A stretch of DNA of 64,000 nt from Thermoproteota archaeon. GTDB taxonomy: Archaea; Korarchaeota; JAOZGF01; JAOZFZ01. Where the stretch lies: the NCBI GenBank assembly GCA_027492035.1, contig JAOZFT010000015.1:1-64000 (forward strand), read 5' to 3'. The position numbers and the translations under genes are program-made. Numbering within the stretch: the first letter of the stretch is position 1; each line of letters begins with the position of its first letter. Below, one piece after another: positions 18,562-61,236 of this stretch. The notes beneath the pieces are model-generated. The model saw nothing but the letters and a program-made list of their open reading frames with translations. It made no database searches and was not told the DNA's origin.

Positions 18562-18915
18562 TTATTGAATAGGTGGTGAAAGGGCATAAATTATGGTGGC
18601 GCTTTCCTTCCCTTCATTTATTAACCCATGTTTCTCACCAGCTGGGAGATAAATTGCATCTCCCTCTTTTACCTTAATTTTTTTGTTGTTACAGTAAATT
18701 GTCACTTCCCCCTTTAATATGAAGTAAACTTCGTCTTCAACCTCATACTTCCACTTCAATGGTTTATTACCTGGTTCAACAAATACTACACCAAACATTA
18801 TTTTGTCAGATCCTTCCCTTCCCTTAGTTATTAACCTTCTTACACGAATACTGTCAGATAAAGTTACAGATTCAATATCTCTTACATTAACAACCTTTGC
18901 TGACTTTTTACTCAT
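18562..18915 (-). CDS. Cupin-domain protein
   Basis: EDEVYFILKGEV..GDAIYLPAGEKHGLIN; the first-motif histidines are missing. Confidence 0.85.
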   Translation of the reverse strand: MSKKSAKVVNVRDIESVTLSDSIRVRRLITKGREGSDKIMFGVVFVEPGNKPLKWKYEVEDEVYFILKGEVTIYCNNKKIKVKEGDAIYLPAGEKHGLINEGKESATIIYALSPPIQ

Positions 18916-18973
18916 TGCTTTCCCCCCATTTTCTTGAAAAGGAAAAACTGTGAAGTTCTCAGCTTCTCATCCC

Positions 18974-20026
18974 TCACCCTTTAAAGTGAGGCATTATCTT
19001 TTCATTAATCTCTTTTAATGTCTCCTCAACTGTTGGTCCCCCTGAAATGGTCATTATTCTGAACCCTAGGTTTTTTGCACCGGCTTTAACGTACTCATTT
19101 ATATGTTCTAAACATTCTTCAGGACTGCCTATTACAATAGTTTTTCTAACTAATTCCTCAGGCACGTCTTTAGATGCTTCAAGTAAAGCTTTTCCATTTG
19201 GGAAAGGTTTATGTGCCAATATATGGGTGTAAGCCGGGGCTGAAACCTCATAACCATGTTCCTTCAAAATACTTCTTTCAACGTAGAGGTAAGCCTTACC
19301 TACCTCCACAGCTTTCTTCTGCACTTCAGGATCGTCACACATACAAACATAAAGCCATGTAACAATGTCTATTTCATCGAAATTCCTACCAGCTCTTTTT
19401 GCGGATTCTTCTATTGTTTTGATTAAACCTGGAAGTTTCTTTGGCAACACAATCCACGAGAACCAACCTTCAGCTTTTTCCCCTATTATTTTCAGGAGGC
19501 TTTTTGATTTTATTGCCCCCACATAAATTGGTGGATGAGGTTTCTGAACAAACTTCTGATCTATAAATGCTTCTTTTAAAGTGTAAAACTCTCCATTGTA
19601 GAAAGCCATTCTTTCTCTGTTAGAGGTCCATAAAAGCTTGGTTACGTCAATGTACTCACTTAACCTTTTAATCCTCTTTTTTGCACTTTCGAATTCTATT
19701 CCGAAAGGTATAAGGTTCATTGCTTCACCTGCACCTAAGGCTGTCACTGCTCTGCCTGCTGTTAACTCATCAAGTGTAGCCACCATTTGAGCCATTTTTG
19801 AGGGGTGAATGTGGTAAATGTCAGCTACACCTGGGCTTAATTTAATTTTTTTAGTTTGGGCACCTATTGCACCCATAACAGTCCAACAGTCGATGCGTGC
19901 CCCATCAATGTCTACGATATGGTCAGGTATAAAAACATAGTCGAAACCGTATTTTTCAGCTAAAACTCCACATTTCACAACCCTATCTGCTGGGTACATA
20001 TCTCCAAGCACTGCACTAAACTTCAT
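18974..20026 (-). CDS. LLM-class (luciferase-like, probably F420-dependent) oxidoreductase
   Basis: AEKYGFDYVFIPDH, ATLDELTAGRAVTALGAG, PHPPIYVGA, IGSPEEC; likely start MKFSAV at 20026. Confidence 0.88.
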   Translation of the reverse strand: MKFSAVLGDMYPADRVVKCGVLAEKYGFDYVFIPDHIVDIDGARIDCWTVMGAIGAQTKKIKLSPGVADIYHIHPSKMAQMVATLDELTAGRAVTALGAGEAMNLIPFGIEFESAKKRIKRLSEYIDVTKLLWTSNRERMAFYNGEFYTLKEAFIDQKFVQKPHPPIYVGAIKSKSLLKIIGEKAEGWFSWIVLPKKLPGLIKTIEESAKRAGRNFDEIDIVTWLYVCMCDDPEVQKKAVEVGKAYLYVERSILKEHGYEVSAPAYTHILAHKPFPNGKALLEASKDVPEELVRKTIVIGSPEECLEHINEYVKAGAKNLGFRIMTISGGPTVEETLKEINEKIMPHFKG

Positions 20027-20058
20027 TTTTTCCCCACCTCCTCCCAAAAAGTAAAAAA

Positions 20059-20781
20059 TTACTTTGTTGCAAATAATGCTTCTCCGTAACCTTTCACTTC
20101 TTTTAACGGTGCGTTACATTTTTTTAATGCATTCCATAGTGTTGCTGAGTTGCTGCAAACAACAGGTTTGTTAAGTTTCTTCTCTAACTCATTTATGAGC
20201 CCCATTAGTTTAAGCCCTGTACAGCTTATGAATAAACCTTTAGATCTTTCGGAGTCAGCTTTTTCAGCTGCTTCACTTAATTCGCTATGTTCCAAGGCAC
20301 ACATTTCTTCAGTATTAGTTATGGAAAGGCCGACATCCTTCACAACTTTTATGTTGAAATTTGCCAAGTAATTTATCTCCATTTTGTTAAGGTCTTTAGT
20401 GTAAGGTGTCATTAAAGATATAGTGGATAATTTTAATTGCTTCAATGCCTCAACCACTGACTGCATAGTACTTATTGCTTTTACCCCTGTCTCATTTTCT
20501 ATTTTATTAAGCAGTTTCTTTTCCCATTCCAAACCTAGAACAAAGGTTCCGCTTGTGCAATGGTAAATTATTAAGTCTATTTTTGGGGGTAACCTTTCAA
20601 TAGCGATTTCTACTTCATCCGACATCTTGAGCAAGTTTTCTCTTGTAACTGATTCCAGTTTAATTCGTGTCGCGTAAAAAGCCACACCCTCAGGTGCTGC
20701 TTTATTGAATTCATATTCTGTCGTGTAGTCCTCGTGCGGTAAAATCAACCCTATTCTAGCTTTTTCACCGTAAAGAACCAT
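20059..20781 (-). CDS. Maleate isomerase / arylmalonate decarboxylase / Asp-Glu racemase family (EutA-like)
   Basis: RIGLILP, YHCTSG and FISCTGL (two catalytic Cys), TPY, KPVVCSN. Confidence 0.85.
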   Translation of the reverse strand: MVLYGEKARIGLILPHEDYTTEYEFNKAAPEGVAFYATRIKLESVTRENLLKMSDEVEIAIERLPPKIDLIIYHCTSGTFVLGLEWEKKLLNKIENETGVKAISTMQSVVEALKQLKLSTISLMTPYTKDLNKMEINYLANFNIKVVKDVGLSITNTEEMCALEHSELSEAAEKADSERSKGLFISCTGLKLMGLINELEKKLNKPVVCSNSATLWNALKKCNAPLKEVKGYGEALFATK

Positions 20782-20808
20782 TTTTAAACACCTTTAATAA
20801 ATGCCCAA

Positions 20809-22116
20809 TTATTCTTTGTGTTCCTTAATAAACTTGTCAACAAGTGCTAAAAACGTATCTATTTCCTCTTCAGTGTGTGCAGTTGAGAGTATGAAGTGGG
20901 CAGTTGACGGGGAGAGATAAATAACCCCATGCTCCAGCATAAACCTGTGGAGGGCTGTTGTTAATTTTAAATTTTTAGTTCTGTAAACTGTTAATCCATC
21001 CTTGGGTCTTTCACGGGTGAAATGGATACCGAAAACAGAACCTATTCCCGTAACGTAAGCTTGAAAACCGTATTTTTCAAAAATATCAATTAACCCCTCC
21101 CTAGCCCTTTTCCCTAGTTTATCTAGGTAAGGATAAATTTCATCTTTTCTCCTTTCCAGTTCTTTCATGACAATGTACCCTGCCTTGGCTACTAAAGCGT
21201 TTCCTGTGTATGTACCCCCGTGAAAAGACCTTTCCCAAAAATTAGGATGCTTCAAATGATCTATTTTCTCCATAACGTCAGCCCTGCCACAAATAGCTCC
21301 TGCACCCGCAAAATATTGGCCACCAACTGTTTTTCCTAAAGTGGTTAGGTCAGGTTTTACGCCATAAAACTTTTGTGCACCTCCCACAAACCTGAACCCT
21401 GTAACCACCTCATCAAATATCAACAAAATATCCTTTTCGTCGCAAAGTTCTCTAAGGCCTTTCAAGAAATCATTTTCCGGAGGTATAAAACCACCAGCCC
21501 CCATAACAGGTTCAAGAATCATACAAGCTAAATCTTCACCCTTTATTCTTTCTCTAACTCCATCTAAATCATTGAATGGAAGTAGGATAGTGTTTTTTAT
21601 TTGGTTCTCAGTTAATCCTAAGGAGGCAGGTTTGTCGAAAGGGTAACTGACAGCTTTATGTAATGCATCATAACCCCCATGCCAATGACCTTCAAACTTA
21701 CCGATTTTCTTCCTGCCTGTGTAGGCCCTTGCCAATCTGATGTTATACATATTTCCCTCTGTTCCACTATTGGTTGGCCTCACCATTTCTGCACTAGGGA
21801 ACCATTTACAAACCTGTTCAGCCCATTTAACAGCTTCCTCATTTAAGTAACCAAAGAAAGGCCCATTATTTAATTGTTCTTTTACAGCTTCAATGACAGG
21901 CTCATAATTATGCCCAAGAATGGCAGCTGAATGATCCATCCAATAATCCACATATTCATTGCCATCAATATCCCAGACTTTACTTCCTTTAGCTTTAACT
22001 ATACATAGGGGATAAGGCTCAAAGTATCGAGAGCCGTAACAAACTCCTCCAGGCAAATATTTTTTAGCTTTTTCAAAAATAACCTTAGACTTCTTAGTTC
22101 TCTCCTCAAAACCCAT
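20809..22116 (-). CDS. Class III PLP aminotransferase (GSA-aminomutase-like)
   Basis: WDIDGNEYVDY, NSGTEG, FEGHWHG, FDEVVTGFR, PLP-Lys in LGKTVGG, GTYTGN. Confidence 0.9.
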   Translation of the reverse strand: MGFEERTKKSKVIFEKAKKYLPGGVCYGSRYFEPYPLCIVKAKGSKVWDIDGNEYVDYWMDHSAAILGHNYEPVIEAVKEQLNNGPFFGYLNEEAVKWAEQVCKWFPSAEMVRPTNSGTEGNMYNIRLARAYTGRKKIGKFEGHWHGGYDALHKAVSYPFDKPASLGLTENQIKNTILLPFNDLDGVRERIKGEDLACMILEPVMGAGGFIPPENDFLKGLRELCDEKDILLIFDEVVTGFRFVGGAQKFYGVKPDLTTLGKTVGGQYFAGAGAICGRADVMEKIDHLKHPNFWERSFHGGTYTGNALVAKAGYIVMKELERRKDEIYPYLDKLGKRAREGLIDIFEKYGFQAYVTGIGSVFGIHFTRERPKDGLTVYRTKNLKLTTALHRFMLEHGVIYLSPSTAHFILSTAHTEEEIDTFLALVDKFIKEHKE

Positions 22117-22215: not shown

Positions 22216-23616
22216 TTAGCCTTTTAAGATAGGTGGTATTTCAAGTTTAGCTTCAGCAACATCTGCAGGCCATATTGGTTTTGATTGTCCACCTTTCCAT
22301 TGAAGCAATGGGAAGTGGAAGTGCTGTGCATCAGCAACTGTTTCTTGGAAGTGGCCTATTAATCTGCCGCTGGCATCGGTACAGTTTATTTTGTCGCATA
22401 TCTTTATGTTCATAAAGAGTCCTTTGTAGTCCATACTTAACAACGCAGCTCTTATTTTGTCAGGATCCATGCTTCCAGCTTTGTTTAAAGCATCTATTAA
22501 CATCGAGAATTGGTCATGTGCCCAGTAACCACACACTACGGCTGAGGGTGTATAACCTAGCTGTGCTTTGTATTTGTTTACCCACGCCTTCTGTTCATCT
22601 GTTAAAACTGCAGTGGCATCCATGCTTAATACGTAATCTGAAGCCTCTCCTACTGCAGGGTACCACTCATCTACTGAGAACCATCCTATACCGAACGATG
22701 CAACAAATGCTTTCAGTTTCATTTCATGAACCTGTTTAAGGAACGCTGTCAAGCTTGGGAGGCCAGTAGAAACTTGGTAAACCAAACTGATGTCAGCTGA
22801 CTTATATTTGCTGATTAATGGCGTAAAGTCTGTTTCTGGCGGTGACAAGGTGAAGACGTCATAGTAGACTACTTGCCACCCGGCTTTTTCGAAAGCAGCT
22901 TTTAATGCATCCCCCATTCCTCTACCGTAATCTGTGTCTTCAACAAGTAAAGCAACTTTTTTGTTTCTTGGCGTGTACCCTGCATCCTTTAATACTTCTT
23001 GGAAAGCAGGTACGAATAAGCTGGCATAAATTGGTGGACATGGCCAAAGTTTGAACCAGTACTTGCTCTCGTCAGGATTCTTTATTCTTTTATAGCATAG
23101 GAATTGAGTTTCCCCTACTGAACCCCAATGAATCTTATGATACCTTGTAGAAATCTTGTATAGTGCCATTGCTACTGAACTGTGCCAGTTTCCTCCTAAT
23201 ATGTCAGCTCCAAGCCTTACAATCGCGTCTTCGTAGGCTTTAACAGCTTCTTCTGGGTCTGATTTCGAATCAACCCAAATAAACTGTATGTCCCTCAGTT
23301 TTCCATCCACATACACTGGAATTTTTCCTTGCGCTTTTAATTCATTATAAGTGAAAAGAATAGCATCTTTGTATTGTTCTCCTGTTCGTGCAGCAGGTCC
23401 TGTTAAAGGGGCCACAAGTGCTATTTTGATAGGTGGCCCTGTCGGAGTTGGTGAAGCTGTTGGTGTAGCTGTAGGAGATGCTGTAGCTGTTGGTGTAGGT
23501 GTTGGAGTGGGTGAAGGAGGCTGCCCCACGCATCCAGATAGTACCAGAATAGCAATGAGGAAGAAAGGAAGTACGTACTTACCTGAACCTATATATTTTG
23601 CCTTCATGATAGGCAC
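22216..23616 (-). CDS. livK: LivK-type ABC substrate-binding lipoprotein
   Basis: Lipobox LSGC, Pro/Thr linker (PSPTPTPTPTATASPTATPT), IKIALVAPLTGPAA, EDTDYGRG. Confidence 0.85.
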   Translation of the reverse strand: MPIMKAKYIGSGKYVLPFFLIAILVLSGCVGQPPSPTPTPTPTATASPTATPTASPTPTGPPIKIALVAPLTGPAARTGEQYKDAILFTYNELKAQGKIPVYVDGKLRDIQFIWVDSKSDPEEAVKAYEDAIVRLGADILGGNWHSSVAMALYKISTRYHKIHWGSVGETQFLCYKRIKNPDESKYWFKLWPCPPIYASLFVPAFQEVLKDAGYTPRNKKVALLVEDTDYGRGMGDALKAAFEKAGWQVVYYDVFTLSPPETDFTPLISKYKSADISLVYQVSTGLPSLTAFLKQVHEMKLKAFVASFGIGWFSVDEWYPAVGEASDYVLSMDATAVLTDEQKAWVNKYKAQLGYTPSAVVCGYWAHDQFSMLIDALNKAGSMDPDKIRAALLSMDYKGLFMNIKICDKINCTDASGRLIGHFQETVADAQHFHFPLLQWKGGQSKPIWPADVAEAKLEIPPILKG

Positions 23617-24139
23617 CTAGAAGTTGGAAAACTTCCATTACTCTCTTGAATCTTTCACTCTCATGATTATTTTTTAAGACTAAACTTTAAGTAAAATTTA
23701 TAAATCTTACCCTTTTTCCCCCTGACGTTCATCTTAATAATCCATATTTAAATTCTTTTACAACTCTGCAATTAAGTTTCCTGACAAATTTAGTAAGATA
23801 CACGTATAAAACAGCTGTTTTTCAAGCGTAAATTAGGTAAAGTGTTGTATACTCTTTAAGTTCATGGTTTAAAATCGTTAAAATAATAATGATACCCTGA
23901 TAGAAATACTATAAAGGCTCTTTTCTAGTATTATTGTTTATGGAAAAATTGGAAGATGGGTTACGTATATTCAAAAATTGTTCTATGAAAATGCAAGAAA
24001 TAAAAATAAAAGATAAAATTTTTAAAGGAAAAATTAAGTATAAGATGCTTCAATTAATTCCTTACAAAAACCTTTTCTCACTTAATTAGATAAGAGAAAG
24101 GGAGTCTTTTTCCTTCAGGAGGATACGGGGGGAATTGAT

Positions 24140-25030
24140 TTGATTTCGCCGGTTGAATTGTTGATAGTAAGCTTGTTAAGGGGATCTTTATACGTTTTAA
24201 TTTCAGCAAGCCTTGCTATGCTCTTCGGTATAATCTCTGTAGCTAGTTTTTGCCATGGCGACTTTGCTATGCTAGGAGGATATCTTTCGTACTTTCTACT
24301 GGTTTCATTGGGACTTAACCCTATCCTGGCACTGGTGTTAACTGCTGCTGTAATGTTCCTTTTCGGATGCTTAATCGAGAAATCACTACTTTTCCCACTC
24401 CGCAAAACTAGTGGAAAACTTTGGATGTTCTATACATTTGTTTTAACGCTTGGTATATCCCAAGTTTTGGAGAATGGTGCATTAGCTGCTTTTGGAGCGG
24501 CCTTTCTGGGCATTAAAAGCTTATGGCCTGGAAACATTAATTTACTGGGTACAGCAACTTCTTTAGATAGGTTTGCTATACTTGGAATAAGTGTAGGCAT
24601 AGTTGTGGTTTTCTGGTTTTTCTTAAAATACACCAAAATTGGTCGAGCTATTAGGGCTGTAGGTATAAATGAGGAAGCTGCTTCGATTTTTGGGGTAAAC
24701 GTAAACTTCATTTATACATTAACCTTTGGTTTGTCTGCATTATTAGCAGGGATAGGTGGCCTTTTTTACATGGTGCTTTTCACAACGTATCCCTTAATGG
24801 GAGTTACTGCGAACTTAAAAGCTTGGATAGTTGTGGTAACAGCGGGTCTCGGTAACATAAAGGGAGCTATTTACTGTAGTTTTCTATTATCCTTTGCAGA
24901 GACACTAGCTTACACTTTCCTTTCTGCTGGGTGGCAAAACGTTATTTCCATAATCATTGTAGCTTTAATTCTCCTGTTCAAACCCACAGGTCTTTTCGGT
25001 ACGGAGGTTAAAGGGATATGGGAGAGATAA
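24140..25030 (+). CDS. livH: LivH-type ABC permease
   Basis: FCHGDFAMLGGY, TKIGRAIRAV..NEEAASIFGVN, GLGNIKGA. Confidence 0.9.
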   Translation: MISPVELLIVSLLRGSLYVLISASLAMLFGIISVASFCHGDFAMLGGYLSYFLLVSLGLNPILALVLTAAVMFLFGCLIEKSLLFPLRKTSGKLWMFYTFVLTLGISQVLENGALAAFGAAFLGIKSLWPGNINLLGTATSLDRFAILGISVGIVVVFWFFLKYTKIGRAIRAVGINEEAASIFGVNVNFIYTLTFGLSALLAGIGGLFYMVLFTTYPLMGVTANLKAWIVVVTAGLGNIKGAIYCSFLLSFAETLAYTFLSAGWQNVISIIIVALILLFKPTGLFGTEVKGIWER

Positions 25031-25974
25031 ACCTTCCGAAGCTAAAAACATTCAAAATACTCCCATACTTACTATTTGTGGTTGCACTTGTACCACCTTT
25101 GTTTAAAAACGAATACCTTAACAGCGTACTTATTTCAATTTTCCTGTGGGCAGCCATAGGGGCCTCCTTTGACCTCACTGCTGGCTTTATAAGAGTGACA
25201 AACTTTGGATATGCAGGCTTTTTTGCTATAGGAGCTTACACTTCAGGGTTATTAGCTTTATATTTCAATATATCTCCATGGATAGGAGTATTTCCTGCTG
25301 TGGCATTTGCTGCTGCTCTCGGTGCTCTTGTAGGTTTGTTGACTCTGAGGCTGCATGGAATCTATGCTGCAGTTTTCAGTTGGTTCCTTGCAGAAACAAT
25401 TAAGTACATACTTGCAGCAGCTTCAGATATAACAAGGGGATATCAGGGTTTAATGAATCCGCCTCTCTTCCCAGGAATTAGTAGGTTTCCATATTATTAC
25501 TTCATACTTGGCATCTTAGCCTTTGAAATAATAATCCTTACAAAAATAGCTAGGGGTAAAATGGGTTTTGCCTTTAGGGTAATAGGAGAAGATGAAACAG
25601 CAGCAAAGTCCATAGGGGTCAATGTGCTCTATTACAAAGTTTCCGCCTTTACAATTTCGACCGCGTTTGCAGGTTTACTAGGAGTTTTTTATGCACATTA
25701 CATTGGAGTCATAACACCTGACGTAAGCAGTTTAGTAATAACTGTGCCTGCACTAGCAATTTGTTACGTAGGCGGAGTAGGTTCAATATGGGGATCAATA
25801 CCTTCTTCTTTTGTAATCATCACAATATTTGAGGCATTTAGAGAAATAGGAGCTTACAGATTCATAATCTACGGTGTGCTTTTAATAGTAGTCATGATAT
25901 GGGCAAGGACTGGACTTGTGGGTTTAATAAGAAAAGCAGCAGAAAAAATGAAAGTTACAGAAAAAGAAAAGTGA
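25018..25974 (+). CDS. livM: LivM-type ABC permease
   Basis: NFGYAGFFAIGAY, LRLHGIY, GEDETAAKSIGVN, GGVGSIWG. Confidence 0.9.
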   Translation: MGEINLPKLKTFKILPYLLFVVALVPPLFKNEYLNSVLISIFLWAAIGASFDLTAGFIRVTNFGYAGFFAIGAYTSGLLALYFNISPWIGVFPAVAFAAALGALVGLLTLRLHGIYAAVFSWFLAETIKYILAAASDITRGYQGLMNPPLFPGISRFPYYYFILGILAFEIIILTKIARGKMGFAFRVIGEDETAAKSIGVNVLYYKVSAFTISTAFAGLLGVFYAHYIGVITPDVSSLVITVPALAICYVGGVGSIWGSIPSSFVIITIFEAFREIGAYRFIIYGVLLIVVMIWARTGLVGLIRKAAEKMKVTEKEK

Positions 25975-26082
25975 CTAGCTTTCCCCTCTTTCATTTTTTG
26001 CTTTTTCTAGCAATGTTTCCTGGCCTTTAAAAGGTATTATTTAAGGTATCTGGGAAAAAATAGAGGAAGGGTTTGTAGGGGA

Positions 26083-26784: not shown

Positions 26785-26797
26785 TCCTATATTCACC

Positions 26798-27538: not shown

Positions 27539-27643
27539 AAAAACACTCCTCACACCTGTCATTGCATATTTTTGGGGGATGAATTTAAAAAAAATGGGCA
27601 TCTGAATTTTATTTATTTTTTTCTCTCCATATTTGGTTGATGT

Positions 27644-42199: not shown

Positions 42200-42200
42200 T

Positions 42201-51326: not shown

Positions 51327-51348
51327 CTCCCTAAATTTCTTGAATACC

Positions 51349-52359: not shown

Positions 52360-52374
52360 CCCTTTCCACCTTTC

Positions 52375-54960: not shown

Positions 54961-56427
54961 TTAGTTTTTGGATGTAACTTTGGCTATTTCTCTGGCCTGC
55001 TTTAGTATTTCTTCAACTCTTTCCCTTGTTTCAGCCGGTAAAGGTTCTATTTCATGTTCCTTCAATATTTTTAAGGCTTTCTCCCTTGTTCTTTTAACTA
55101 TATCTTTAGCTCCAAGTTTCATCCACATACTGTATGAAAAACTTCTATCCAACAATTCATTAATGAAATGTTCCTCCTTAAAGTATTTCCTTGTATGTTT
55201 AAGCTTTAAGAAGTTTCCAGCATGTCCAGCTTCCATTATTTCGTTTACAGCAAGTCTTTCCTCATCCACCTTTATTCCTTTCATGAAAAGCTTAGTTTCA
55301 CCTATTACCTCATCCGCAAAAACCAGTATCTCATGGGAAGTTGTAATTGCTGAGTCAATATAGCCTATGTCATGAATGAGGTTTTGGCCTCCGAGAGCCG
55401 CAACCATTAAGTTCCTTGTTGCCTCAGCAAAAGCTTGTCCGTCAAGCACCCGTGAATCTGAACATCCACCAGTACCCCACATCGGGATTCTTAAATAATG
55501 ACAAAGCTGAGCTTGTGCTGTTCCAAGCATCAAATCCTCAATTGCTCCATAAGAGGTAACTGTCGTCCTCATATCCATAACCATAGGTACAAAACCGAAA
55601 ATGAAAGGGGTGCCAGGGTTTATAAGTTGAGCTAAAACGTTTCCACCTATGGATTCCGCCATTCCTTGAACAATTGAACCAGCTAAAGTTACAGGGGCTG
55701 TTGCACCAGTGATTGGGCAAGGGGCGAAAACAACAGGTAACCCCCTCTTAACCCATTCAATCAAAGCTTCTACATAGATTTCGCCGTAAACTAACGGGGA
55801 TTGCGGTTCATCATACATGGAAACTATGGCTCTCCTTTTTAACTCCTCTTCACCACCCGCCACTTCTTCAGCTATTTTAATCATTAGTTTAGTCAATTCT
55901 GCACCATGGTAAGCGAAAACAATTGAGTGCTTCACTGTATTGGACATTATTGCATATTGTTCATAGAGGCCTTGAACCTCTGTCGGAACATCAAAAGGAG
56001 TAGCTAAACCCATTGCGTAATCAATGTTCGGTAACGCATCTGATAATTTAGCTGTGTTCGCTACGTCTTGAAGGTTGGTTTTTCTTCTTTCACCTGTTTC
56101 AAGGTCTATTATATGGGTTGTTCCACTGCTTGTGCCAAAAAAAACTTTCCTGCCTTCAATAATAAAATCTTGCTCTTTACTTCTTCCACAAAGCCTAACT
56201 CTCCTCGGTGCCTTCCTTAATGACTCCTTAACCAAATACTCTGGGAATTTAACTACTTTACTTTTATAATCAACTATTGCACCTGCATCTTCAAGTAGTT
56301 TAAGAGCTTTGTCATGCTCTATTTTAACTCCATGCATTTCTAAAACGTTAAGGATAGCGTAATAAATGTCTTCTATTTGTTCCTTGGATAAAATTTTCAA
56401 CTGTCCCCCCTTTAATCCTTTCCTCAT
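54961..56427 (-). CDS. mttB: MttB-superfamily methyltransferase, pyrrolysine-free (copy 3)
   Basis: GATAPVTLAGS, PGTPFI, SDSRVLDGQA, NLIHDIGY; Cys (55462-55464) at the Pyl-equivalent site. Confidence 0.92.
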   Translation of the reverse strand: MRKGLKGGQLKILSKEQIEDIYYAILNVLEMHGVKIEHDKALKLLEDAGAIVDYKSKVVKFPEYLVKESLRKAPRRVRLCGRSKEQDFIIEGRKVFFGTSSGTTHIIDLETGERRKTNLQDVANTAKLSDALPNIDYAMGLATPFDVPTEVQGLYEQYAIMSNTVKHSIVFAYHGAELTKLMIKIAEEVAGGEEELKRRAIVSMYDEPQSPLVYGEIYVEALIEWVKRGLPVVFAPCPITGATAPVTLAGSIVQGMAESIGGNVLAQLINPGTPFIFGFVPMVMDMRTTVTSYGAIEDLMLGTAQAQLCHYLRIPMWGTGGCSDSRVLDGQAFAEATRNLMVAALGGQNLIHDIGYIDSAITTSHEILVFADEVIGETKLFMKGIKVDEERLAVNEIMEAGHAGNFLKLKHTRKYFKEEHFINELLDRSFSYSMWMKLGAKDIVKRTREKALKILKEHEIEPLPAETRERVEEILKQAREIAKVTSKN

Positions 56428-56600: not shown

Positions 56601-57221
56601 TTAACAGAGCAAAACTAACCCAACTCTGACGATTTTGTCCTTAGTTGGAAAACTAATAGGTGCCCCTGCTCTTTTGCATGTTTCTACGACATCTATTCCT
56701 AGAGCCTCCATTGAGGGCCTAGCCATGAAAGGTTTTGAACAGAAGGGGGTCCCTTTCTTGAGGTTGCATTCCTTACATAATCTACACTGCCCTGAAGTTA
56801 ATCCTGCAGCAAATCTGTAACCCATTTGGAAAGCTAAAGCCTCAACTTTAGAAACTACTTCATAAAGCTTCATTGCACTTGGTGCAACTACTGCTTCATA
56901 ACCCTTTTCAGAATACGCTTCTGCCAGGTTGCTTTTACCTTCTATAACTTTGTTTTTCGGGATCTTATCAGTAAGTTTTATAAGAATAGCAACTCGATAT
57001 TTTTTCAAAACCTTTTTGAACTCTGGTAAAGAGGGTACATAGGGTGGACACATTAAATTGGTGTTGTAGTTTGGGCAAAGTGGAACTATACACTTAAATT
57101 TTACCCTTTCATCTAACACTATATCCTTTGTTGGTATTATTTTACAGAAGGAAGCACCTGACTCTTTAGCTTTTTCGCATAACCTGTTAAAAGCTGCATC
57201 CTCAGCTTTCTTTTCAATCAT
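56601..57221 (-). CDS. DUF2284 Cys-rich predicted metal-binding protein
   Basis: KC..PLCPNY....CPP, GQCRLCKEC, RPSMEALGIDV. Confidence 0.85.
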   Translation of the reverse strand: MIEKKAEDAAFNRLCEKAKESGASFCKIIPTKDIVLDERVKFKCIVPLCPNYNTNLMCPPYVPSLPEFKKVLKKYRVAILIKLTDKIPKNKVIEGKSNLAEAYSEKGYEAVVAPSAMKLYEVVSKVEALAFQMGYRFAAGLTSGQCRLCKECNLKKGTPFCSKPFMARPSMEALGIDVVETCKRAGAPISFPTKDKIVRVGLVLLC

Positions 57222-57232: not shown

Positions 57233-59125
57233 CTAAATTATTTCGGCTACTTTATATGGTAACTCATTGAAATTGTCAAGGAAAGTGTAGTTTCCATTTG
57301 TGGCCTTTGACAAGTCTTTACAAAGATCTACACTTTCTTTTCTTCCACCTCCAATTCCTACCTGTACAACATTTAGTTTATCAAATTTTTTAGCCACATG
57401 TCTTGGATCTTCCCCTCTCGTAACCCAACCATCCGTTATGAGGATTCCTAATTTTTCACTTATATCTGCTCTTATGTTGGCTTCATCTAACTCATCTAAA
57501 CCCTTCTTTAAAGCCGTTTCTATGTTTGTCAACCCGCCTGTTTTTAAATTCAAAATTTTCCTTATCACTTCAGTTAGTTCTTCCTGTTCAAACACAGATT
57601 TTACCACTTCAGGTTTATCCTTAAAAGATATAACTGAGCAGTAATCATCTTTAAATTTAATAAGTAACGTAGCTGCTGCAATAGCTGTCAAAACTATTTT
57701 TTCCCTTTGCATGGAATTGCTTGTATCCAGCATCACAGCCACTCCAACTTTCCTCGGAATTTTCTGCATACACACTATGTCTTGGTAATCAATCACTTTT
57801 TTACCTATTAAGTTTTCAAAGGTTAAATCTTCATCTATTTCTTCCAATCCAGGAACAAATTCACTTCTTTCTTTACGTACTCTTCTAATCCTTTTTCCAG
57901 CTATTCTATGAGCAATCTCTAAAACCATTTTTATAATTAAATCCTCGATTTTCCTTTTTGTTACCGCATCTAAAGCTCTTTCACTAAGTAAAGAATAAAT
58001 TTTTATAACTGGCCATTCATAACCTTCTTTTTCAGCTTTCAAAACCAAATTTAAAACTTCATCATCACTTAATTTCTCAATAAAACCCGGTTTTTCAATT
58101 GCTTCCTTAACAGCTTCAATTATTTTTGTGTTCCGTTCCCGGAAAGAAACCCCTTGTTTTTTCCTATTTTCCACAATGTTTTGTCCTTGTTTAAGTTTAT
58201 TGCTATTGACTCCCCAGTTTTCATTTTTAGGTGTGAAGGGGTTACTACCCCAGTTAAGTTCTTTAAGAACAGAATAGACTATTTCTTTTATTATCTCGCT
58301 CAATTTCTTTTCCGTCTTACCTATTAAAGCAACTTTTGTGTACATTGCTGAAACAGCTAAGTTTACGATTAGTTCAGGGTTTAAGTCAGGGTTTCTTCTA
58401 TTTTTCACTAGTTCGACAAAATCTACAGCTCCCCTAATTGAGGCTCCATGTCTAAATTCAGGATGGACCCTTGTTTTTCTCATAATCTTGACAGCAAGTG
58501 TAAGTACTTTTCGGTCTTCGAACCCTGTTTCCTTCCTGACAATATCTATTTCCTCTTCTTCGCTTTGGTAACTTAACCCTATCCACACGAATCGGTCTCT
58601 AAGTGCTTCACTTAACCTGCTTGTGCCAACGTACTCTTGGGGATTTTGTGTAGCTATAACCAGAAAACCTTCCTTAGCCTTTATTACACCTATTTTTGGA
58701 ATGATAATTTGTTTTTCATCCATTGCAGGAAGCAAAACATTCTGTGTTCCCTCAGGCATTCTGTTAAGTTCATTTATGAAAAGAACACCACCCTCTATCA
58801 TTGCTTGAGTCAAGGGGCCTGGTATGAAGGACTTCCAGCTGTACCCTTTAGATAAGACAATTGGAGGATCAAACCAACCTGTTAATTTGTGTTCAGTGTA
58901 CCTTTCATCGCCATCCACCCGGTAAATTTTTCTCCCTAAGAAATTGGCTACAGCTGCAGCTAAAGTTGTTTTCCCTATACCTACAGGGCCTTCAAGTAAA
59001 ACATGTTTATTTGAAAGTGCAGCATTTAAGATGTTTTTCAGTTCCTCTTCTCTACCAATAATCCTATATTTCCTCTTTATCTTCTTTATGGCTTCCTCTA
59101 AATTGAACATTAGACTTCCCTGCAA
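57233..59125 (-). CDS. MoxR-type AAA+ ATPase fused to a VWA domain
   Basis: IIGRE, LEGPVGIGKT, FINELNR, ATQNP, ALRDRF; C-terminal MIDAS DTSNS..T..ITDG. Confidence 0.88.
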   Translation of the reverse strand: MQGSLMFNLEEAIKKIKRKYRIIGREEELKNILNAALSNKHVLLEGPVGIGKTTLAAAVANFLGRKIYRVDGDERYTEHKLTGWFDPPIVLSKGYSWKSFIPGPLTQAMIEGGVLFINELNRMPEGTQNVLLPAMDEKQIIIPKIGVIKAKEGFLVIATQNPQEYVGTSRLSEALRDRFVWIGLSYQSEEEEIDIVRKETGFEDRKVLTLAVKIMRKTRVHPEFRHGASIRGAVDFVELVKNRRNPDLNPELIVNLAVSAMYTKVALIGKTEKKLSEIIKEIVYSVLKELNWGSNPFTPKNENWGVNSNKLKQGQNIVENRKKQGVSFRERNTKIIEAVKEAIEKPGFIEKLSDDEVLNLVLKAEKEGYEWPVIKIYSLLSERALDAVTKRKIEDLIIKMVLEIAHRIAGKRIRRVRKERSEFVPGLEEIDEDLTFENLIGKKVIDYQDIVCMQKIPRKVGVAVMLDTSNSMQREKIVLTAIAAATLLIKFKDDYCSVISFKDKPEVVKSVFEQEELTEVIRKILNLKTGGLTNIETALKKGLDELDEANIRADISEKLGILITDGWVTRGEDPRHVAKKFDKLNVVQVGIGGGRKESVDLCKDLSKATNGNYTFLDNFNELPYKVAEII

Positions 59126-59180
59126 AAATGATTAGTAAGTACTAAGTTGCTAATGCTTCTTTAAAAAAAGAGGAAGGTAT

Positions 59181-60566
59181 TTATTTGTACCACTCTATTC
59201 CGATATCACTTAACTCCCTTTTAACTGATTCATATATTTTAATGTAACTTTTTGCGGGTTTCACCCTCTTTATGTCATAGCATTCTTGGAATTTTTTACC
59301 TAAGGGGGCGTTCTTGATTTTGTCACTATATTTCTTCAAAATCTCTTTCACGATAACGTTTGCATCTGTTCTTTTCATTCCCAATACTGAATACGCTATT
59401 TCAGCCGCAAATTTAGGTTCTAAAGGTGTGAAATAATCTTCATGCTTGTTTTTAGCCACCCCTACTGCCTCTATGTGGCCGCCGGAAACAATTGGTGAAA
59501 TTACTGACGCAGCGGTTTCGTAGAGAACCATGTCAGTATGAGGCCCTGCAGCCACATACACCAAAGGAATGGTTAAAAAGTTTGTGTTAAGGCTTACAGC
59601 TTGGGTGTAGACCGAATTTACCCAGATCAAGTCAGGGGTTGTGTTACAGACGTGCCATATGTGTAGAGGGAAGGGGCTGAAATAAACAGCTTTAAAAACA
59701 AGGCTTCCTAAAAAGTGATGTGCAACTGTTGAAACAGCTGACCCTTCAGGTCCTCCAGCGTATCCACCAACCATTGGGGAGAAGTCGATGTCAATGGGTG
59801 CACCAAAGGACATTATGGTACATGCTTTGTTTAATCTGTCAAAATCAACTTTCATAGGATCAAGAACCCCTATCATGAACCCATCTGACTGCCTTAGTCC
59901 ATATTTTGGATGTAAAGCAGCTGCGAGAGAAACAGCTGATTCAGCTGTCGAAAGGGTGTTCATGATAGGTATACCAGGTCTTCCAACTCTTCTCATTCCT
60001 TCTCTAGCTAAAACAGCATTTCTTATAGCTCCCAAAACCTCTAAAGGTGACCTGGGTCTAATTCTCATTCCATTCACATTAGTTAAAGCAGGGGTGGTGA
60101 TAGAGTTTGTTTCAGGTATAGAGGCATACCCTTCCATCAATGCTAGAAATATAGCTTCAGAAGATACTGGCCCACCTGCTGCACCTAAGAAGCACCATGG
60201 AGACTGTTTATCTTCAGGTTTTCTAGGCATCAATGCTTTTCTATCGTTTCCTTCTCCGAAATAAACCTTTTTTGGGGCTTTTCTCAATTCTTCCTTAACT
60301 TCCTCCTCACTAAACTTTATTACTCTACCAGTGTCAACACAATAGGCACCTGTTTCAACAAAGAATTCAAAAGCTGCATTAAAAACGTCTTTAGCCAAGC
60401 CGTTATCAGCTGGAACCAGTTCTTCACCGTCATACTTTATGTCATACTCCTTTACCTTCTCTCTTAAGTTTTTTGAATAAATTCTTAGTTCATAATCTCT
60501 TGGAAGTACAGGTTTACCTGTTAAAGCTTTCTCCATCACATCTAAAAACGTAACCAATTCTATCAC
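59181..60566 (-). CDS. mtmB: MtmB-family methyltransferase, pyrrolysine-free
   Basis: GRPG, GGYAGG, HI, AGP.T.M.L.E, APLGKKFQECYD match MtmB; Met (59961-59963) at the Pyl-equivalent site. Confidence 0.9.
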   Translation of the reverse strand: MIELVTFLDVMEKALTGKPVLPRDYELRIYSKNLREKVKEYDIKYDGEELVPADNGLAKDVFNAAFEFFVETGAYCVDTGRVIKFSEEEVKEELRKAPKKVYFGEGNDRKALMPRKPEDKQSPWCFLGAAGGPVSSEAIFLALMEGYASIPETNSITTPALTNVNGMRIRPRSPLEVLGAIRNAVLAREGMRRVGRPGIPIMNTLSTAESAVSLAAALHPKYGLRQSDGFMIGVLDPMKVDFDRLNKACTIMSFGAPIDIDFSPMVGGYAGGPEGSAVSTVAHHFLGSLVFKAVYFSPFPLHIWHVCNTTPDLIWVNSVYTQAVSLNTNFLTIPLVYVAAGPHTDMVLYETAASVISPIVSGGHIEAVGVAKNKHEDYFTPLEPKFAAEIAYSVLGMKRTDANVIVKEILKKYSDKIKNAPLGKKFQECYDIKRVKPAKSYIKIYESVKRELSDIGIEWYK

Positions 60567-60570
60567 TTCC

Positions 60571-61236
60571 TCACTTCTTCTTTTTTTCTAAAAGAGTAGC
60601 CGCCACTTTAACTGCATCCGTTGCAGTTTCTCCATACCCATCCGCGCCTATTTGTTCAGCCCATTCTGGAGTTGTTGGTCCTCCTCCAACTAAGACTATA
60701 TATTTCTCTCTTACTCCTTGGGCCTTTAAGTATTCAATAACATCTTTTTGTCCGCCAATGGTTGAGGACATTAAAGCTGAAACAGCTATTATATTTGCCC
60801 CGAATTTCTCTGCTTCTGTGTAAAATTTAGCTGCTGGAACATCCACCCCTAAATCCAAAACATCGAAACCGTTAACTTTCAGCATTGTTGCCACTACATT
60901 TTTTCCTAATTCATGAATATCTCCCATCACTGTACCAATTACGACTTTACCCTTCTTCTCCTCAAGTTTTGCAGTTTTAGGTATATGGGGAAGCAATATT
61001 TTCAAGGCCTTATCCATAGCTTCACCAGCCATCATCAAATCTGTTAAGAATATTTCCATTTTTTCAAATTTTTCCCCTACAATTTTCATTCCTTCAGCCA
61101 GTCCCTTCTCTATTGCTTCTAAAGGATTAATGTTTGCTTTAATTATTTCCTTGGATAAATTAACTACCTCATCTTCATCTATTTCAATAATAGCCTTCTT
61201 TAACTTGTCAATTAGCTCAGCGCCCTTATTACTCAT
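60571..61236 (-). CDS. Corrinoid (B12-binding) methyltransferase cognate protein
   Basis: GTVMGDIHELGKN, DLGVDV, SALMSST, VGGGP..IGADG; 4 bp upstream of mtmB. Confidence 0.93.
   Translation of the reverse strand: MSNKGAELIDKLKKAIIEIDEDEVVNLSKEIIKANINPLEAIEKGLAEGMKIVGEKFEKMEIFLTDLMMAGEAMDKALKILLPHIPKTAKLEEKKGKVVIGTVMGDIHELGKNVVATMLKVNGFDVLDLGVDVPAAKFYTEAEKFGANIIAVSALMSSTIGGQKDVIEYLKAQGVREKYIVLVGGGPTTPEWAEQIGADGYGETATDAVKVAATLLEKKKK

What the first reader, a model, noticed from the sequence alone, without database searches (positions are those of the whole stretch)
18562..61236. ~43-kb pyrrolysine-free betaine/N-methyl-amino-acid catabolic island in an archaeon with no mcr in view
Seen: 3 MttB, 1 MtmB, 2 corrinoid proteins and 1 stand-alone MtrH, none with an in-frame amber codon, interleaved with a Liv importer and about 15 amino-acid/acyl-CoA catabolic genes. 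Known: bacterial non-Pyl MttB enzymes (MtgB, MtpB, MtcB, MtyB) demethylate glycine betaine, proline betaine, carnitine and gamma-butyrobetaine, and the MtrH-like MtgA passes the methyl group to THF. Inference: this island both strips methyl groups and ferments the remaining carbon skeleton (proline/C4-C5 amino acid to acyl-CoA). Such complete anaerobic betaine use has, to my knowledge, not been biochemically described in archaea.
Basis: partly seen in the sequence, partly recalled or inferred. Interest (0 to 1): 0.85.

Follow-up and report, generated by a model that had tools for sequence, protein, structure and literature searches.

The report
Pyrrolysine-free methylamine methyltransferase cluster in an archaeon
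An archaeon related to Bathyarchaeia carries several vitamin-B12-dependent enzymes that probably strip methyl groups from nitrogen compounds, next to amino-acid fermentation genes; the gene set is real, but the kind is already predicted in several archaeal groups and the substrate is probably not a classical betaine.

Summary
Between 27,743 and 61,236 lie three full-length MttB homologues, one MtmB homologue, two corrinoid proteins and one stand-alone MtrH, none with an in-frame stop. A Liv-type importer and about 19 amino-acid or acyl-CoA enzymes sit among them.

The pyrrolysine site holds Ala, Cys and Cys in the MttBs and Met202 in the MtmB homologue.

The host is archaeal. 31 of 35 organism-named CDC48 hits are Bathyarchaeia or Bathyarchaeota, at 72-75% identity.

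- Only 1 of the 4 glycine-betaine-binding residues of MtgB is kept.
- The Arg conserved in all characterised acidic quaternary-amine enzymes is replaced by Phe or Trp.
- MtrH matches the H4MPT-type family, not MtgA.
- The stretch contains housekeeping-like genes and no mobility genes, so it is not an island.

One link to amino-acid catabolism is solid. MttB#1 appears operonic with a bacterial-type proline racemase and a flavoenzyme whose best solved-structure matches I recall to be an archaeal L-proline dehydrogenase.

Non-methanogenic archaeal methylotrophy using non-Pyl MttB, a corrinoid protein and MtrH is already proposed in print. I rate this a new member of a known kind, of moderate interest.

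The parts
27743..29209 (+). MttB#1, a non-Pyl MttB-superfamily methyltransferase (MT1). Ala326 sits at the Pyl site and Phe321 at the MtgB-R312 site.
   Evidence: Pfam MTTB 323 bits. TIGR02369 480<525. Alignments to 7xcl and 9yce.
29227..30231 (+). Proline racemase of bacterial type with a Cys/Cys catalytic pair, 18 bp downstream of MttB#1.
   Evidence: Pfam Pro_racemase 426 bits. 418 bits to 7pb3 with both Cys motifs kept. All 31 organism-named homologues are bacterial.
30366..31652 (+). FAD oxidoreductase DAO#1, L-proline-dehydrogenase-like, distantly related to sarcosine oxidase beta subunits.
   Evidence: Pfam DAO. 289 bits to 3axb and 3vqr. 51% identical to DAO#2.
33069..34061 (-). Ornithine cyclodeaminase / mu-crystallin family protein; candidate pyrroline-2-carboxylate reductase or cyclodeaminase.
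   Evidence: Pfam OCD_Mu_crystall 281 bits. All NCBIfam hits are below cut-off.
22216..27601 (.). Liv-type ABC importer: SBP (-), LivH and LivM (+), LivF and LivG (-). It is divergent from MttB#1.
   Evidence: Pfam Peripla_BP_6, BPD_transp_2 x2 and ABC_tran x2. The SBP matches amino-acid-binding proteins 3ip5 and 3ipc only weakly (60 bits).
18562..22116 (-). Cupin, Mer-like F420/LLM oxidoreductase, Asp/Glu-racemase-like protein (Amdase/EutA) and class-III aminotransferase, co-directional with the SBP gene.
   Evidence: The LLM protein's best solved relatives are Mer, at only 106 bits.
34264..36111 (+). Aldehyde:ferredoxin oxidoreductase.
   Evidence: Pfam AFOR_N and AFOR_C, 251 and 382 bits.
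39213..45786 (+). Co-directional run: Ord-like dehydrogenase, IorA, IorB, 4-hydroxybutyryl-CoA dehydratase, class-III aminotransferase.
   Evidence: IorA 724>651, IorB 216>206, Ord 347<400. The dehydratase scores 566 bits to 1u8v.
45860..46762 (-). Stand-alone MtrH-type MT2 (methyl-corrinoid:pterin methyltransferase).
   Evidence: Pfam MtrH 255 bits. NF002142 314>287; MtgA 242<550. PDB 8z9u_B 248 bits, DhMtgA 206 bits.
46903..48360 (-). MttB#2, with Cys at the Pyl site and Trp at the R312 site. It overlaps corrinoid#1 by 4 bp.
48357..49013 (-). Corrinoid protein #1, with B12-binding_2 and B12-binding domains and a DxHxxG motif.
   Evidence: TIGR02370 193<215.
49210..53544 (-). Tight run: thiolase, HMG-CoA synthase, DUF35 and two CoA-transferase subunits. 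Possibly the housekeeping mevalonate trio plus a 3-oxoacid CoA-transferase.
   Evidence: Gaps or overlaps between genes are 22 bp or less (coordinates).
53664..54932 (+). DAO#2, a paralogue of DAO#1, convergent with MttB#3.
54961..56427 (-). MttB#3, with Cys at the Pyl site and Trp at the R312 site.
56601..57221 (-). DUF2284 Cys-rich protein (CxxCxxC plus further Cys); probable Fe-S protein.
   Evidence: Pfam DUF2284 147 bits. Sequence. The atlas shows DUF2284 clusters only.
57233..59125 (-). MoxR/NorQ-type AAA_5 ATPase fused to a VWA domain.
   Evidence: Pfam AAA_5 and VWA. PDB matches are midasin AAA, NorQ and CbbQ.
59181..60566 (-). Non-Pyl MtmB-family methyltransferase with Met202 at the Pyl202 site.
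   Evidence: Pfam MtmB 327 bits. 216 bits to 1l2q with X aligned to Met. No NCBIfam hit at E<=1e-10.
60571..61236 (-). Corrinoid protein #2, 4 bp upstream of the MtmB homologue.
   Evidence: TIGR02370 220>215. DxHxxG motif.

Best explanation
This is an ordinary chromosomal neighbourhood of a Bathyarchaeia-related archaeon, not a mobile island. It encodes corrinoid-dependent N-demethylation modules.

Proposed mechanism. Four pyrrolysine-free MT1 enzymes (three old MttB paralogues and one MtmB homologue) methylate two MtbC/MttC-type corrinoid proteins. A stand-alone MtrH-type MT2 passes the methyl group on, most likely to H4MPT, for acetyl-CoA synthesis or oxidation.

Proposed substrates. They are N-methylated compounds that are not bound the way MtgB binds glycine betaine. 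For MttB#1 the best guess is an N-methylated proline derivative. Its gene is followed within 18 bp by a proline racemase, and after a further 134-bp gap by a flavoenzyme that I recall to be L-proline-dehydrogenase-like. It is preceded by a divergent amino-acid-type ABC importer.

Surroundings. The neighbouring genes (IOR, AOR, 4-hydroxybutyryl-CoA dehydratase, aminotransferases, CoA-transferase, thiolase) ferment proline-, ornithine- or GABA-type amino acids. They supply reduced ferredoxin and acyl-CoA.

Shown: gene identities, absence of Pyl codons, active-site differences, archaeal affinity, operon-like spacing.

Inferred: direction of methyl flow, H4MPT as acceptor, substrate identity, any coupling to fermentation.
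For: - Family assignments and full-length matches.
- The Pyl site holds Ala/Cys/Cys and Met.
- No in-frame stops in 7 of 7 genes.
- Both corrinoid proteins keep DxHxxG.
- MtrH is above the MtrH-family cut-off and far below the MtgA cut-off.
- 31 of 35 organism-named CDC48 hits are Bathyarchaeia/-ota, and 6 of 6 organism-named MttB hits are archaeal, 3 of them Bathyarchaeota.
- MttB#1, ProR and DAO#1 are co-directional, with gaps of 18 and 134 bp.
- 2 of 3 MttBs have a DAO paralogue nearby: DAO#2 lies directly beside MttB#3, and DAO#1 lies one gene away from MttB#1.
- ProR keeps both catalytic Cys.
- In a relative at 90% identity or more, an MttB#1 cluster member and the ProR representative are both listed with an 8,222-bp contig.
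- The one distant locus fetched (L001, Desulfobacteraceae MAG, MttB 38% identical, Trp/Ala at the same two sites) also carries a DAO enzyme, a class-III aminotransferase and an ABC importer beside its MttB.
- Published proposals for Bathy-6 describe a CoP-MtrH couple handing methyl groups to H4MPT, together with amino-acid oxidation (passages read).
Against: - Substrates are unknown and no residue-level model supports proline derivatives.
- The proline betaine enzyme MtpB is said to keep the Arg that these proteins lack.
- The ProR-MttB pairing was not seen beyond near-identical relatives. 0 contig lengths are shared between the 120 listed ProR hits and the 120 listed MttB hits apart from that relative (compared by eye; a weak test).
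- The DAO and aminotransferase of L001 are only about 29% identical to the window's over partial lengths, so they are not orthologues.
- MtrH could run in the opposite, anabolic direction.
- The H4MPT pathway, CODH/ACS, mcr and pyl genes could not be looked for outside the window.
- The thiolase/HMGCS/DUF35 trio and AlaX look housekeeping, so some adjacency is incidental.
Confidence: 0.5

Rival explanations
1. The MT1s are classical betaine demethylases (glycine betaine, proline betaine, carnitine, gamma-butyrobetaine), and the same locus ferments the demethylated skeleton completely.
For: - All characterised non-Pyl MttB members act on quaternary amines.
- ProR, a proline-dehydrogenase-like flavoenzyme and an OCD-family protein lie next to MttB#1.
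- A 4-hydroxybutyryl-CoA dehydratase, an aminotransferase and a CoA-transferase lie near MttB#2. These would suit a GABA-type end product of butyrobetaine.
Against: - Only 1 of 4 MtgB glycine-betaine residues is kept, and the carboxylate-binding Arg is Phe/Trp/Trp.
- In 118 aligned relatives only 15 have Arg there, and they form one separate clade that holds none of the window's three proteins.
- The importer is Liv-type; no OpuA/ProU or BCCT family was hit.
- 4-hydroxybutyrate dehydrogenase, crotonase and 3-hydroxybutyryl-CoA dehydrogenase were not found in the window.
Confidence: 0.15
2. The methyltransferase modules act on non-acidic methylamines (choline-, tetramethylammonium- or trimethylamine-like) and feed methylotrophic acetogenesis. 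This serves as an electron sink for amino-acid fermentation. The co-location reflects shared redox economy or regulation, not processing of one substrate.
For: - The sites aligned to the substrate-binding residues resemble Pyl-MttB (Val/Tyr/Gly at the Y97, R312 and F356 sites) more than MtgB.
- Cys at the Pyl site in 70 of 118 relatives and an aromatic residue at the Arg site in 99 of 118.
- The only characterised non-Pyl MtmB (MtqB) uses tetramethylammonium and choline. Its modelled pocket is described as rich in sulfur-containing and aromatic residues.
- Bathy-6 papers propose amino-acid oxidation plus methylotrophic acetogenesis.
Against: - It does not explain why MttB#1 is followed directly by ProR, or why 2 of 3 MttBs have a DAO paralogue nearby.
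- The analogy between the MtqB and MttB pockets crosses two unrelated families.
- No choline or amine transporter is in view.
Confidence: 0.2
3. The CoP-MtrH couple works anabolically or in reverse. It would move methyl groups from methyl-H4MPT to small-molecule acceptors, for example to make N-methylated solutes.
For: Loh et al. 2021 raise an anabolic role for the Bathyarchaeia CoP-MtrH couple (passage read).
Against: - Four MT1 paralogues beside an importer and catabolic oxidoreductases fit uptake and breakdown better.
- No metE-like gene is nearby.
Confidence: 0.07
4. The organism is a methyl-reducing methanogen whose mcr lies elsewhere, and these modules feed methanogenesis.
For: - Some Bathyarchaeia MAGs (BA1, BA2) with an isolated mtrH and a CoP gene were proposed to be methanogens.
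- Only 64 kb was examined.
Against: - No MtaA/MtbA-type CoM methyltransferase, mcr or methanogenesis marker was hit in the window.
- None of the 57 Bathyarchaeia MAGs of one floodplain study carried mcr.
Confidence: 0.05

Closest known systems
Non-Pyl MttB + MtbC-like corrinoid protein + MtrH clusters of non-methanogenic archaea (Freyarchaeia, Atabeyarchaeia; also cited for Sif-, Brock- and Culexarchaeia), PMC11291895
   Same: The same three families are co-located, without Pyl. They are proposed to pass methyl groups from quaternary amines into the H4MPT or THF branch of the Wood-Ljungdahl pathway. All of this is genomic prediction only.
   Different: - The host here is Bathyarchaeia-like.
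- There are three MttB paralogues plus a non-Pyl MtmB.
- One MttB is operonic with proline racemase.
- No MtrA-like or MtrAH fusion and no gcvH is in view.
[quoted passage not shown] 2021, PMC7886697)
   Same: A stand-alone MtrH lies next to a methylamine-type corrinoid protein in Bathyarchaeia. An amino-acid-oxidising lifestyle and methylotrophic acetogenesis are proposed.
   Different: In Bathy-6 the substrate-specific MT1 was unidentified and not co-located. Here MttB#2 lies between the corrinoid protein and MtrH.
MtgBCA glycine betaine system of Desulfitobacterium hafniense (structures 9yce, 2qne, 6sj8; PMC13080624)
   Same: Same superfamilies for MT1, the corrinoid protein and MT2, and the same three-component logic.
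   Different: - Only H348 of Y97/R312/H348/F356 is kept.
- MT1 scores 241 bits to MtgB, the same as to Pyl-MttB (243 bits).
- MT2 fails the MtgA equivalog.
- The acceptor is probably H4MPT.
MtqB/MtqC of Methanococcoides methylutens Q3c, the first characterised non-Pyl MtmB (tetramethylammonium and choline), PMC13044021
   Same: A non-Pyl MtmB-family MT1 is encoded directly beside a corrinoid protein whose NCBIfam scores resemble a dimethylamine/MtbC type.
   Different: - The host is not known to be a methanogen.
- Membership of the MtqB clade is untested.
- The best of 1.84 billion representatives is only 46% identical.
- An AAA-VWA ATPase and a DUF2284 protein follow the gene.
Thermococcus litoralis ProR / L-proline dehydrogenase / Pyr2C reductase (OCD homologue) cluster, PMC4364671
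   Same: A Cys-Cys ProR lies beside a flavin proline dehydrogenase, an OCD-family gene and transporter genes in an archaeon.
   Different: - The ProR here is of clostridial type (55-61% identical to bacterial enzymes).
- The flavoenzyme resembles the PDB 3axb type rather than the heteromeric type.
- An MttB methyltransferase heads the operon.
4-hydroxybutyryl-CoA dehydratase of Clostridium aminobutyricum (1u8v), from GABA fermentation
   Same: 566-bit match over the full length. An aminotransferase and a CoA-transferase are nearby.
   Different: - The CoA-transferase is of the 3-oxoacid (PF01144) type.
- No 4-hydroxybutyrate dehydrogenase is in the window.
- The same enzyme also serves autotrophic cycles in archaea (6vjr scores 500 bits).

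Membership tests
MttB superfamily (PF06253 / COG5598) | Full-length match to the family model | tested here: met
   304-328 bits covering model positions 30 to 493-498 of 500 for all three proteins.
Trimethylamine methyltransferase MttB sensu stricto (TIGR02369) | In-frame UAG (pyrrolysine) at the M. barkeri Pyl site, and a score above the equivalog cut-off | tested here: not met
   Ala326, Cys and Cys align to the X of 7xcl. Scores 480, 447 and 431 are below 525. No in-frame stops.
MtgB glycine betaine methyltransferase | Binding residues Y97, F356 (cation-pi) and R312, H348 (carboxylate) | tested here: not met
   MttB#1 has Val105, Gly364, Phe321 and His356. MttB#2 and #3 have Ser, Gly/Ala, Trp and His. 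So 1 of 4 is kept (chain index of 9yce = native minus 2, which fits all four residues).
Characterised acidic quaternary-amine MttB members (MtpB, MtcB, MtyB, MthB) | The Arg equivalent to MtgB R312, reported to be conserved in all members of known function | tested here: not met
   Phe/Trp/Trp at that column. Conservation is stated in PMC13080624 (discussion read). The sequences of MtpB, MtcB, MtyB and MthB were not on hand, so the test runs through MtgB only.
MtmB family (PF05369) | Full-length match, and Pyl202 for true monomethylamine methyltransferases | tested here: inconclusive
   The family match is met (327 bits, positions 2-450 of 450). Pyl is not present: Met202 aligns to the X of 1l2q. 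It is therefore a non-Pyl MtmB homologue.
MtqB clade (tetramethylammonium/choline) | Clustering with Methanococcoides MtqB, and its conserved Met/Cys/aromatic pocket | not testable with these tools
The pocket positions in the paper are logo positions, not residue numbers.
Methylamine-type corrinoid proteins (TIGR02370) | B12-binding_2 and B12-binding domains, DxHxxG motif, score above cut-off | tested here: met
   Both domains and the motif are present in both proteins. CoP#2 scores 220>215; CoP#1 scores 193<215.
MtrH family MT2 (NF002142) versus MtgA (NF047990) | Score above the family cut-off | tested here: met
   NF002142 314>287, met. MtgA 242<550, not met. TIGR01114 mtrH 215<271, not met. 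The pterin actually used was not testable.
Genomic island (horizontally acquired block) | Integrase or transposase, tRNA or repeat boundaries, compositional break | tested here: not met
   0 tRNAs. No mobility family. GC is 0.35-0.41 inside against 0.32-0.37 upstream. Boundary repeats were not searched. The ProR gene alone shows bacterial affinity.
Reductive activase of corrinoid proteins (RamA / RACo type) | ASKHA ATPase with Fe-S domain encoded with the MT genes | tested here: not met
   No such family was hit in the window. A DUF2284 Cys-rich protein and an AAA-VWA ATPase occupy the cluster instead.

The most novel reading that the evidence does not exclude
Two linked ideas remain open.

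1. The window's MttBs belong to a large, mostly uncultured clade with Cys or Ala at the pyrrolysine site and Phe or Trp where all characterised members have Arg. This clade may be a new substrate class of corrinoid N-demethylases, acting on N-methylproline-type or non-acidic quaternary amines. In this archaeon it is wired directly to proline racemase and proline dehydrogenase.

2. The DUF2284 Fe-S-like protein and the AAA-VWA ATPase between MttB#3 and the MtmB homologue may be the missing ATP-dependent corrinoid activase or maturase of Bathyarchaeia.
Probability: 0.15. Interest if true: 0.75.

Novelty: new member of a known kind. Interest (0 to 1): 0.42.

Why it matters
[quoted passage not shown] If this locus is a working route from N-methylated amino compounds to methyl-H4MPT, it would divert precursors of methanogenic methylamines into acetate. 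That idea has already been raised for Asgard lineages.

The locus also offers concrete candidates for assay:
- four MT1s with an unusual pocket;
- a proline-linked operon;
- a possible new activase.

As a concept it is not new. As a set of testable enzymes it is useful.

Tried and rejected
- **Genome-contig scan with MttB#2.** 47 stretches matched a pattern and 1 was confirmed (38% identity, a Desulfobacteraceae MAG).
- **Exact look-up of 10 window proteins.** 8 of 10 were found, in clusters of 1-3 members, and none carried a name.
- **The 'MtgB' of Ca. Baizosediminiarchaeum as a rival.** I considered whether this enzyme (an O-demethylase for methoxylated aromatics) could explain the MttBs. 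It is rejected: that protein is about 300 aa and unrelated to MttB.
- **Complex prediction of corrinoid protein #2 with DUF2284.** No verdict (scores 0.00 and 0.00, controls not run). This is neither for nor against binding.
- **Rfam over the whole window.** 0 matches.
- **Paper searches.** '8Z9U' found 0 papers and '3AXB' plus 'proline dehydrogenase' found 0. PMC3370190 is not held.
- **Cross-matching contig lengths between the MttB and ProR hit tables, by eye.** No shared value apart from the near-identical relative. This is a weak test.
- **Atlas search of DUF2284.** It returned only DUF2284 clusters.
- **Not examined.** Supplementary figures of the cited papers (MttB and MtbC trees) were not seen and may already place this clade.

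Full report
**What is there**

The window has 65 ORFs of 100 aa or more.

| Gene | Coordinates (strand) | Length |
|---|---|---|
| MttB#1 | 27743-29209 (+) | 488 aa |
| MttB#2 | 46903-48360 (-) | 485 aa |
| MttB#3 | 54961-56427 (-) | 488 aa |
| MtmB homologue | 59181-60566 (-) | 461 aa |
| Corrinoid protein #1 | 48357-49013 (-) | 218 aa |
| Corrinoid protein #2 | 60571-61236 (-) | 221 aa |
| MtrH | 45860-46762 (-) | 300 aa |

- The three MttB homologues cover almost the whole Pfam model, and the MtmB homologue covers model positions 2-450 of 450.
- Both corrinoid proteins have the B12-binding_2 and B12-binding domains and a DxHxxG motif. They are 44% identical to each other.
- A script found no in-frame TAG, TAA or TGA in any of the 7 genes. 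Among 51 genes, stop-codon use is TAA 33, TGA 14 and TAG 4.
- No tRNA and no Rfam family was found.
- The Liv-type importer (22216-27601) is present. All its NCBIfam equivalog scores are below cut-off.

**Pyrrolysine sites and pocket**

In the alignment to M. barkeri MtmB (1l2q, 216 bits), the X that marks pyrrolysine aligns to Met202 of the window protein. In the alignment of MttB#1 to M. barkeri MttB (7xcl, 243 bits), the X aligns to Ala326. MttB#2 and #3 have Cys in that column.

The 2026 JBC paper on MtgB (abstract and sections 7 and 9 read) defines the glycine-betaine site as Y97, F356, R312 and H348. It states that R312 is conserved in all MttB-superfamily members of known function, whose substrates are all acidic quaternary amines.

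I mapped these residues through the gap-free stretches of the 9yce alignment. Chain index plus 2 equals native numbering, which fits all four residues. The result:

| MtgB residue | MttB#1 | MttB#2 / #3 |
|---|---|---|
| Y97 | Val105 | Ser / Ser |
| R312 | Phe321 | Trp / Trp |
| H348 | His356 | His / His |
| F356 | Gly364 | Gly / Ala |

- One of four residues is kept and the Arg is missing.
- At the Y97, R312 and F356 sites the window proteins resemble Pyl-MttB (Val, Tyr, Gly) more than MtgB.
- MttB#1 scores the same against MtgB (241 bits) as against Pyl-MttB (243 bits), so it is not a member of the MtgB clade.
- All three fail the TIGR02369 equivalog cut-off (480, 447 and 431 against 525).

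**The MttB clade**

A profile search with the three paralogues found 549 proteins at E<=1e-30 among 8000 scored candidates. I aligned 118 of the 120 listed, dropping the two shorter than 440 aa.

- Arg-equivalent column: Phe 48, Trp 44, Arg 15, Tyr 7, other 4.
- Pyl-equivalent column: Cys 70, Val 13, Gly 10, Ala 7, Ile 6, other 12.

In a FastTree of these 118 (midpoint-rooted), the 15 Arg-bearing sequences form one clade that contains none of the window's proteins. The three window proteins sit in three different subclades:
- MttB#1 with P0155, P0156 and P0162 (66-70% identical, all Phe/Ala);
- MttB#3 with P0154;
- MttB#2 on its own branch.

They are about 52% identical to each other. They are therefore old paralogues, not recent duplicates.

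**The MtmB homologue**

An exhaustive search of 1.84 billion representatives gave 1031 hits at E<=1e-3 and 246 at E<=1e-30. The best is only 46% identical. 128 of the 150 listed are 430-490 aa long, that is, uninterrupted. Across the 129 aligned sequences the Pyl202 column is variable: Leu 20, Ile 14, Val 14, Gly 12 ... Met 6.

[quoted passage not shown] This is MtqB of Methanococcoides methylutens, which is active on tetramethylammonium and for which choline use was inferred from proteomics and docking. Its tree holds 1,061 MtmB sequences, most of unknown function. I could not test whether the window protein belongs to the MtqB clade.

**Whose genome**

The CDC48 ATPase (10635-12869) has 120 listed homologues at 66-75% identity. 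35 carry an organism name, and 31 of those are Candidatus Bathyarchaeia or Bathyarchaeota. The other four are labelled Thaumarchaeota, Nitrososphaerota, Nitrososphaerales and Nezhaarchaeales.

The six organism-named MttB hits are all archaeal: Bathyarchaeota 3, Nitrososphaeria 1, Promethearchaeota 1 and Halodesulfurarchaeum 1.

No close relative was therefore found among the species representatives by that method. 'Archaeon' is right, and 'Bathyarchaeia-related' is the best available placement.

**Gene order**

Coordinates suggest these units:

1. **MttB#1 unit.** LivG and LivF run divergently from MttB#1. Then come MttB#1, ProR (18-bp gap), DAO#1 (134 bp) and AlaX, with a convergent OCD-family gene.
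2. **Plus-strand run, 39213-45786.** Ord-like dehydrogenase, IorA, IorB, 4-hydroxybutyryl-CoA dehydratase and a class-III aminotransferase.
3. **First minus-strand run.** Thiolase, HMGCS, DUF35 and CoA-transferase A and B (gaps of 22 bp or less, one 8-bp overlap). After 196 bp come corrinoid#1 and MttB#2 (4-bp overlap). After a further 140 bp comes MtrH.
4. **Second minus-strand run.** Corrinoid#2, the MtmB homologue (4-bp gap), the AAA-VWA ATPase, DUF2284 and MttB#3, which is convergent with DAO#2.

**Neighbouring enzymes**

- **ProR.** It scores 418 bits to the Acetoanaerobium sticklandii enzyme (7pb3) and keeps both catalytic Cys motifs. After two close relatives (99% and 79%), its homologues are 55-61% identical. 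All 31 organism-named ones are bacterial. From my knowledge of the names, 30 are Bacillota and one is a Treponema. This points to horizontal acquisition.
- **DAO#1 and DAO#2.** They are 51% identical. DAO#1's best solved relatives are 3axb and 3vqr (289 and 287 bits). I recall these as the Aeropyrum pernix dye-linked L-proline dehydrogenase. PDB names them only 'putative oxidoreductase', and I could not confirm the identity.
- **Known comparator.** An archaeal ProR / L-ProDH / OCD-type Pyr2C reductase cluster is known from Thermococcus litoralis (passages read).
- **HpaB-family protein.** It is a 4-hydroxybutyryl-CoA dehydratase (566 bits to 1u8v).
- **Likely housekeeping.** The thiolase/HMGCS/DUF35 trio matches what I know as the archaeal mevalonate-pathway complex. 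AlaX is a tRNA-editing protein. Both are probably housekeeping, which argues against a single-purpose 'island'.
- **No island signatures.** No integrase, transposase or tRNA marks the borders. GC is 0.35-0.41 inside and 0.32-0.37 upstream.

**Evidence on coupling**

For coupling:
- MttB#1 is followed directly by ProR.
- 2 of 3 MttBs have a DAO paralogue nearby (DAO#2 directly beside MttB#3, DAO#1 one gene from MttB#1).
- A relative at 90% identity or more has an MttB#1 cluster member and the ProR representative both listed with an 8,222-bp contig. MtrH and IorA relatives are both listed with a 45,825-bp contig.
- The Desulfobacteraceae locus L001 carries, beside an MttB with Trp/Ala at the same two sites, a DAO enzyme, a class-III aminotransferase and a peptide-type ABC importer.

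Against coupling:
- The L001 DAO and aminotransferase are only about 29% identical over partial lengths.
- No contig length is shared between the ProR and MttB hit lists beyond the near-identical relative (compared by eye).
- Synteny in other archaea could not be examined.

**Methyl acceptor**

MtrH passes the NF002142 MtrH-family cut-off (314>287). It fails the MtgA equivalog (242<550) and the canonical mtrH equivalog (215<271). Its best solved relative is a protein named MtrH (8z9u_B, 248 bits), ahead of D. hafniense MtgA (206 bits) and Mtr-complex MtrH (170 bits).

Bathyarchaeia are described as using the H4MPT Wood-Ljungdahl pathway, and Loh et al. proposed that the Bathy-6 CoP-MtrH couple passes methyl groups to H4MPT. 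H4MPT is therefore the likelier acceptor. This is inferred, not shown. A Mer-like F420/LLM protein at 18974-20047 is only distantly related to Mer (106 bits; 136<276).

**Activation module**

No RamA- or RACo-type activase family was hit. A paper on Ca. Baizosediminiarchaeum notes that the activating enzyme of Bathyarchaeia is unidentified.

Between the MtmB homologue and MttB#3 lie two candidates:
- an AAA_5-VWA ATPase, whose solved relatives are midasin AAA, NorQ and CbbQ;
- a DUF2284 protein with CxxCxxC and further Cys residues.

They are candidates for corrinoid activation or maturation. This is a hypothesis only.

**What is already in print**

- Non-Pyl MttB plus MtbC-like corrinoid protein plus MtrH, read as quaternary-amine methylotrophy without methanogenesis, is proposed for Atabeyarchaeia and Freyarchaeia. 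It is cited there for Sif-, Brock- and Culexarchaeia (passages read).
- The same is proposed for lineages basal to Methanomassiliicoccales.
- Methylamine methyltransferases in mcr-free Bathyarchaeia are reported in a floodplain study.
- Archaeal MtgB (Methanolobus vulcani; search listing and abstract start only) and MtqB have been assayed in methanogens.
- A search for 'MttB' together with 'proline racemase' found one unrelated paper. In the searched library, the MttB-ProR operon does not appear to be described.

**Verdict**

The locus is a new member of a known kind with some unusual details: a pocket without Arg, the link to ProR, and the possible activase. Interest is moderate.

Noticed in passing
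window 61237-62582: A 1.35-kb stretch has no ORF of 100 aa or more. It holds a 64-aa ORF (61896-62090, minus strand) with a partial winged-helix match (HTH_IclR 24 bits). Its tail looks to me like the C-terminal part of an archaeal ATPase/DUF234-type protein, so it may be a gene remnant.
   Followed up: partly
window 29227-30231: The proline racemase is 55-61% identical to enzymes of Stickland-fermenting bacteria. It has only two closer relatives (99% and 79%), which suggests inter-domain transfer into this archaeal lineage. No D-proline reductase gene is in the window.
   Followed up: partly
window 56601-59125: A DUF2284 Cys-rich protein and an AAA_5-VWA fusion ATPase sit inside the methyltransferase run, where a corrinoid activase would be expected. 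No RamA/RACo family is in the window.
   Followed up: partly
window 1918-4683, 8022-9044, 36245-36769, 63137-64000: Four ORFs (921, 340, 174 and 288 aa; the last runs off the window) have no Pfam family at E<=0.01, apart from a 17-bit SpoVIF hit that is probably chance.
   Followed up: partly
window 18974-20047: An F420/LLM-class oxidoreductase has Mer as its best relative, but far below the equivalog cut-offs. It lies in the same run as a cupin, an Asp/Glu-racemase-like protein, an aminotransferase and the importer's binding protein.
   Followed up: partly
L001 55-11443: A Desulfobacteraceae MAG locus places a non-Pyl MttB (Trp/Ala at the two key sites) after a peptide-type ABC importer, a DAO enzyme, a DUF6206 protein and a class-III aminotransferase. 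This is an analogous bacterial arrangement.
   Followed up: partly
window 37744-39027 and 39213-40265: A LarA-family (nickel-pincer) 2-hydroxyacid racemase homologue and a 2,4-diaminopentanoate-dehydrogenase-like protein are transcribed divergently. Both score below the equivalog cut-offs, and their substrates are unknown.
   Followed up: no
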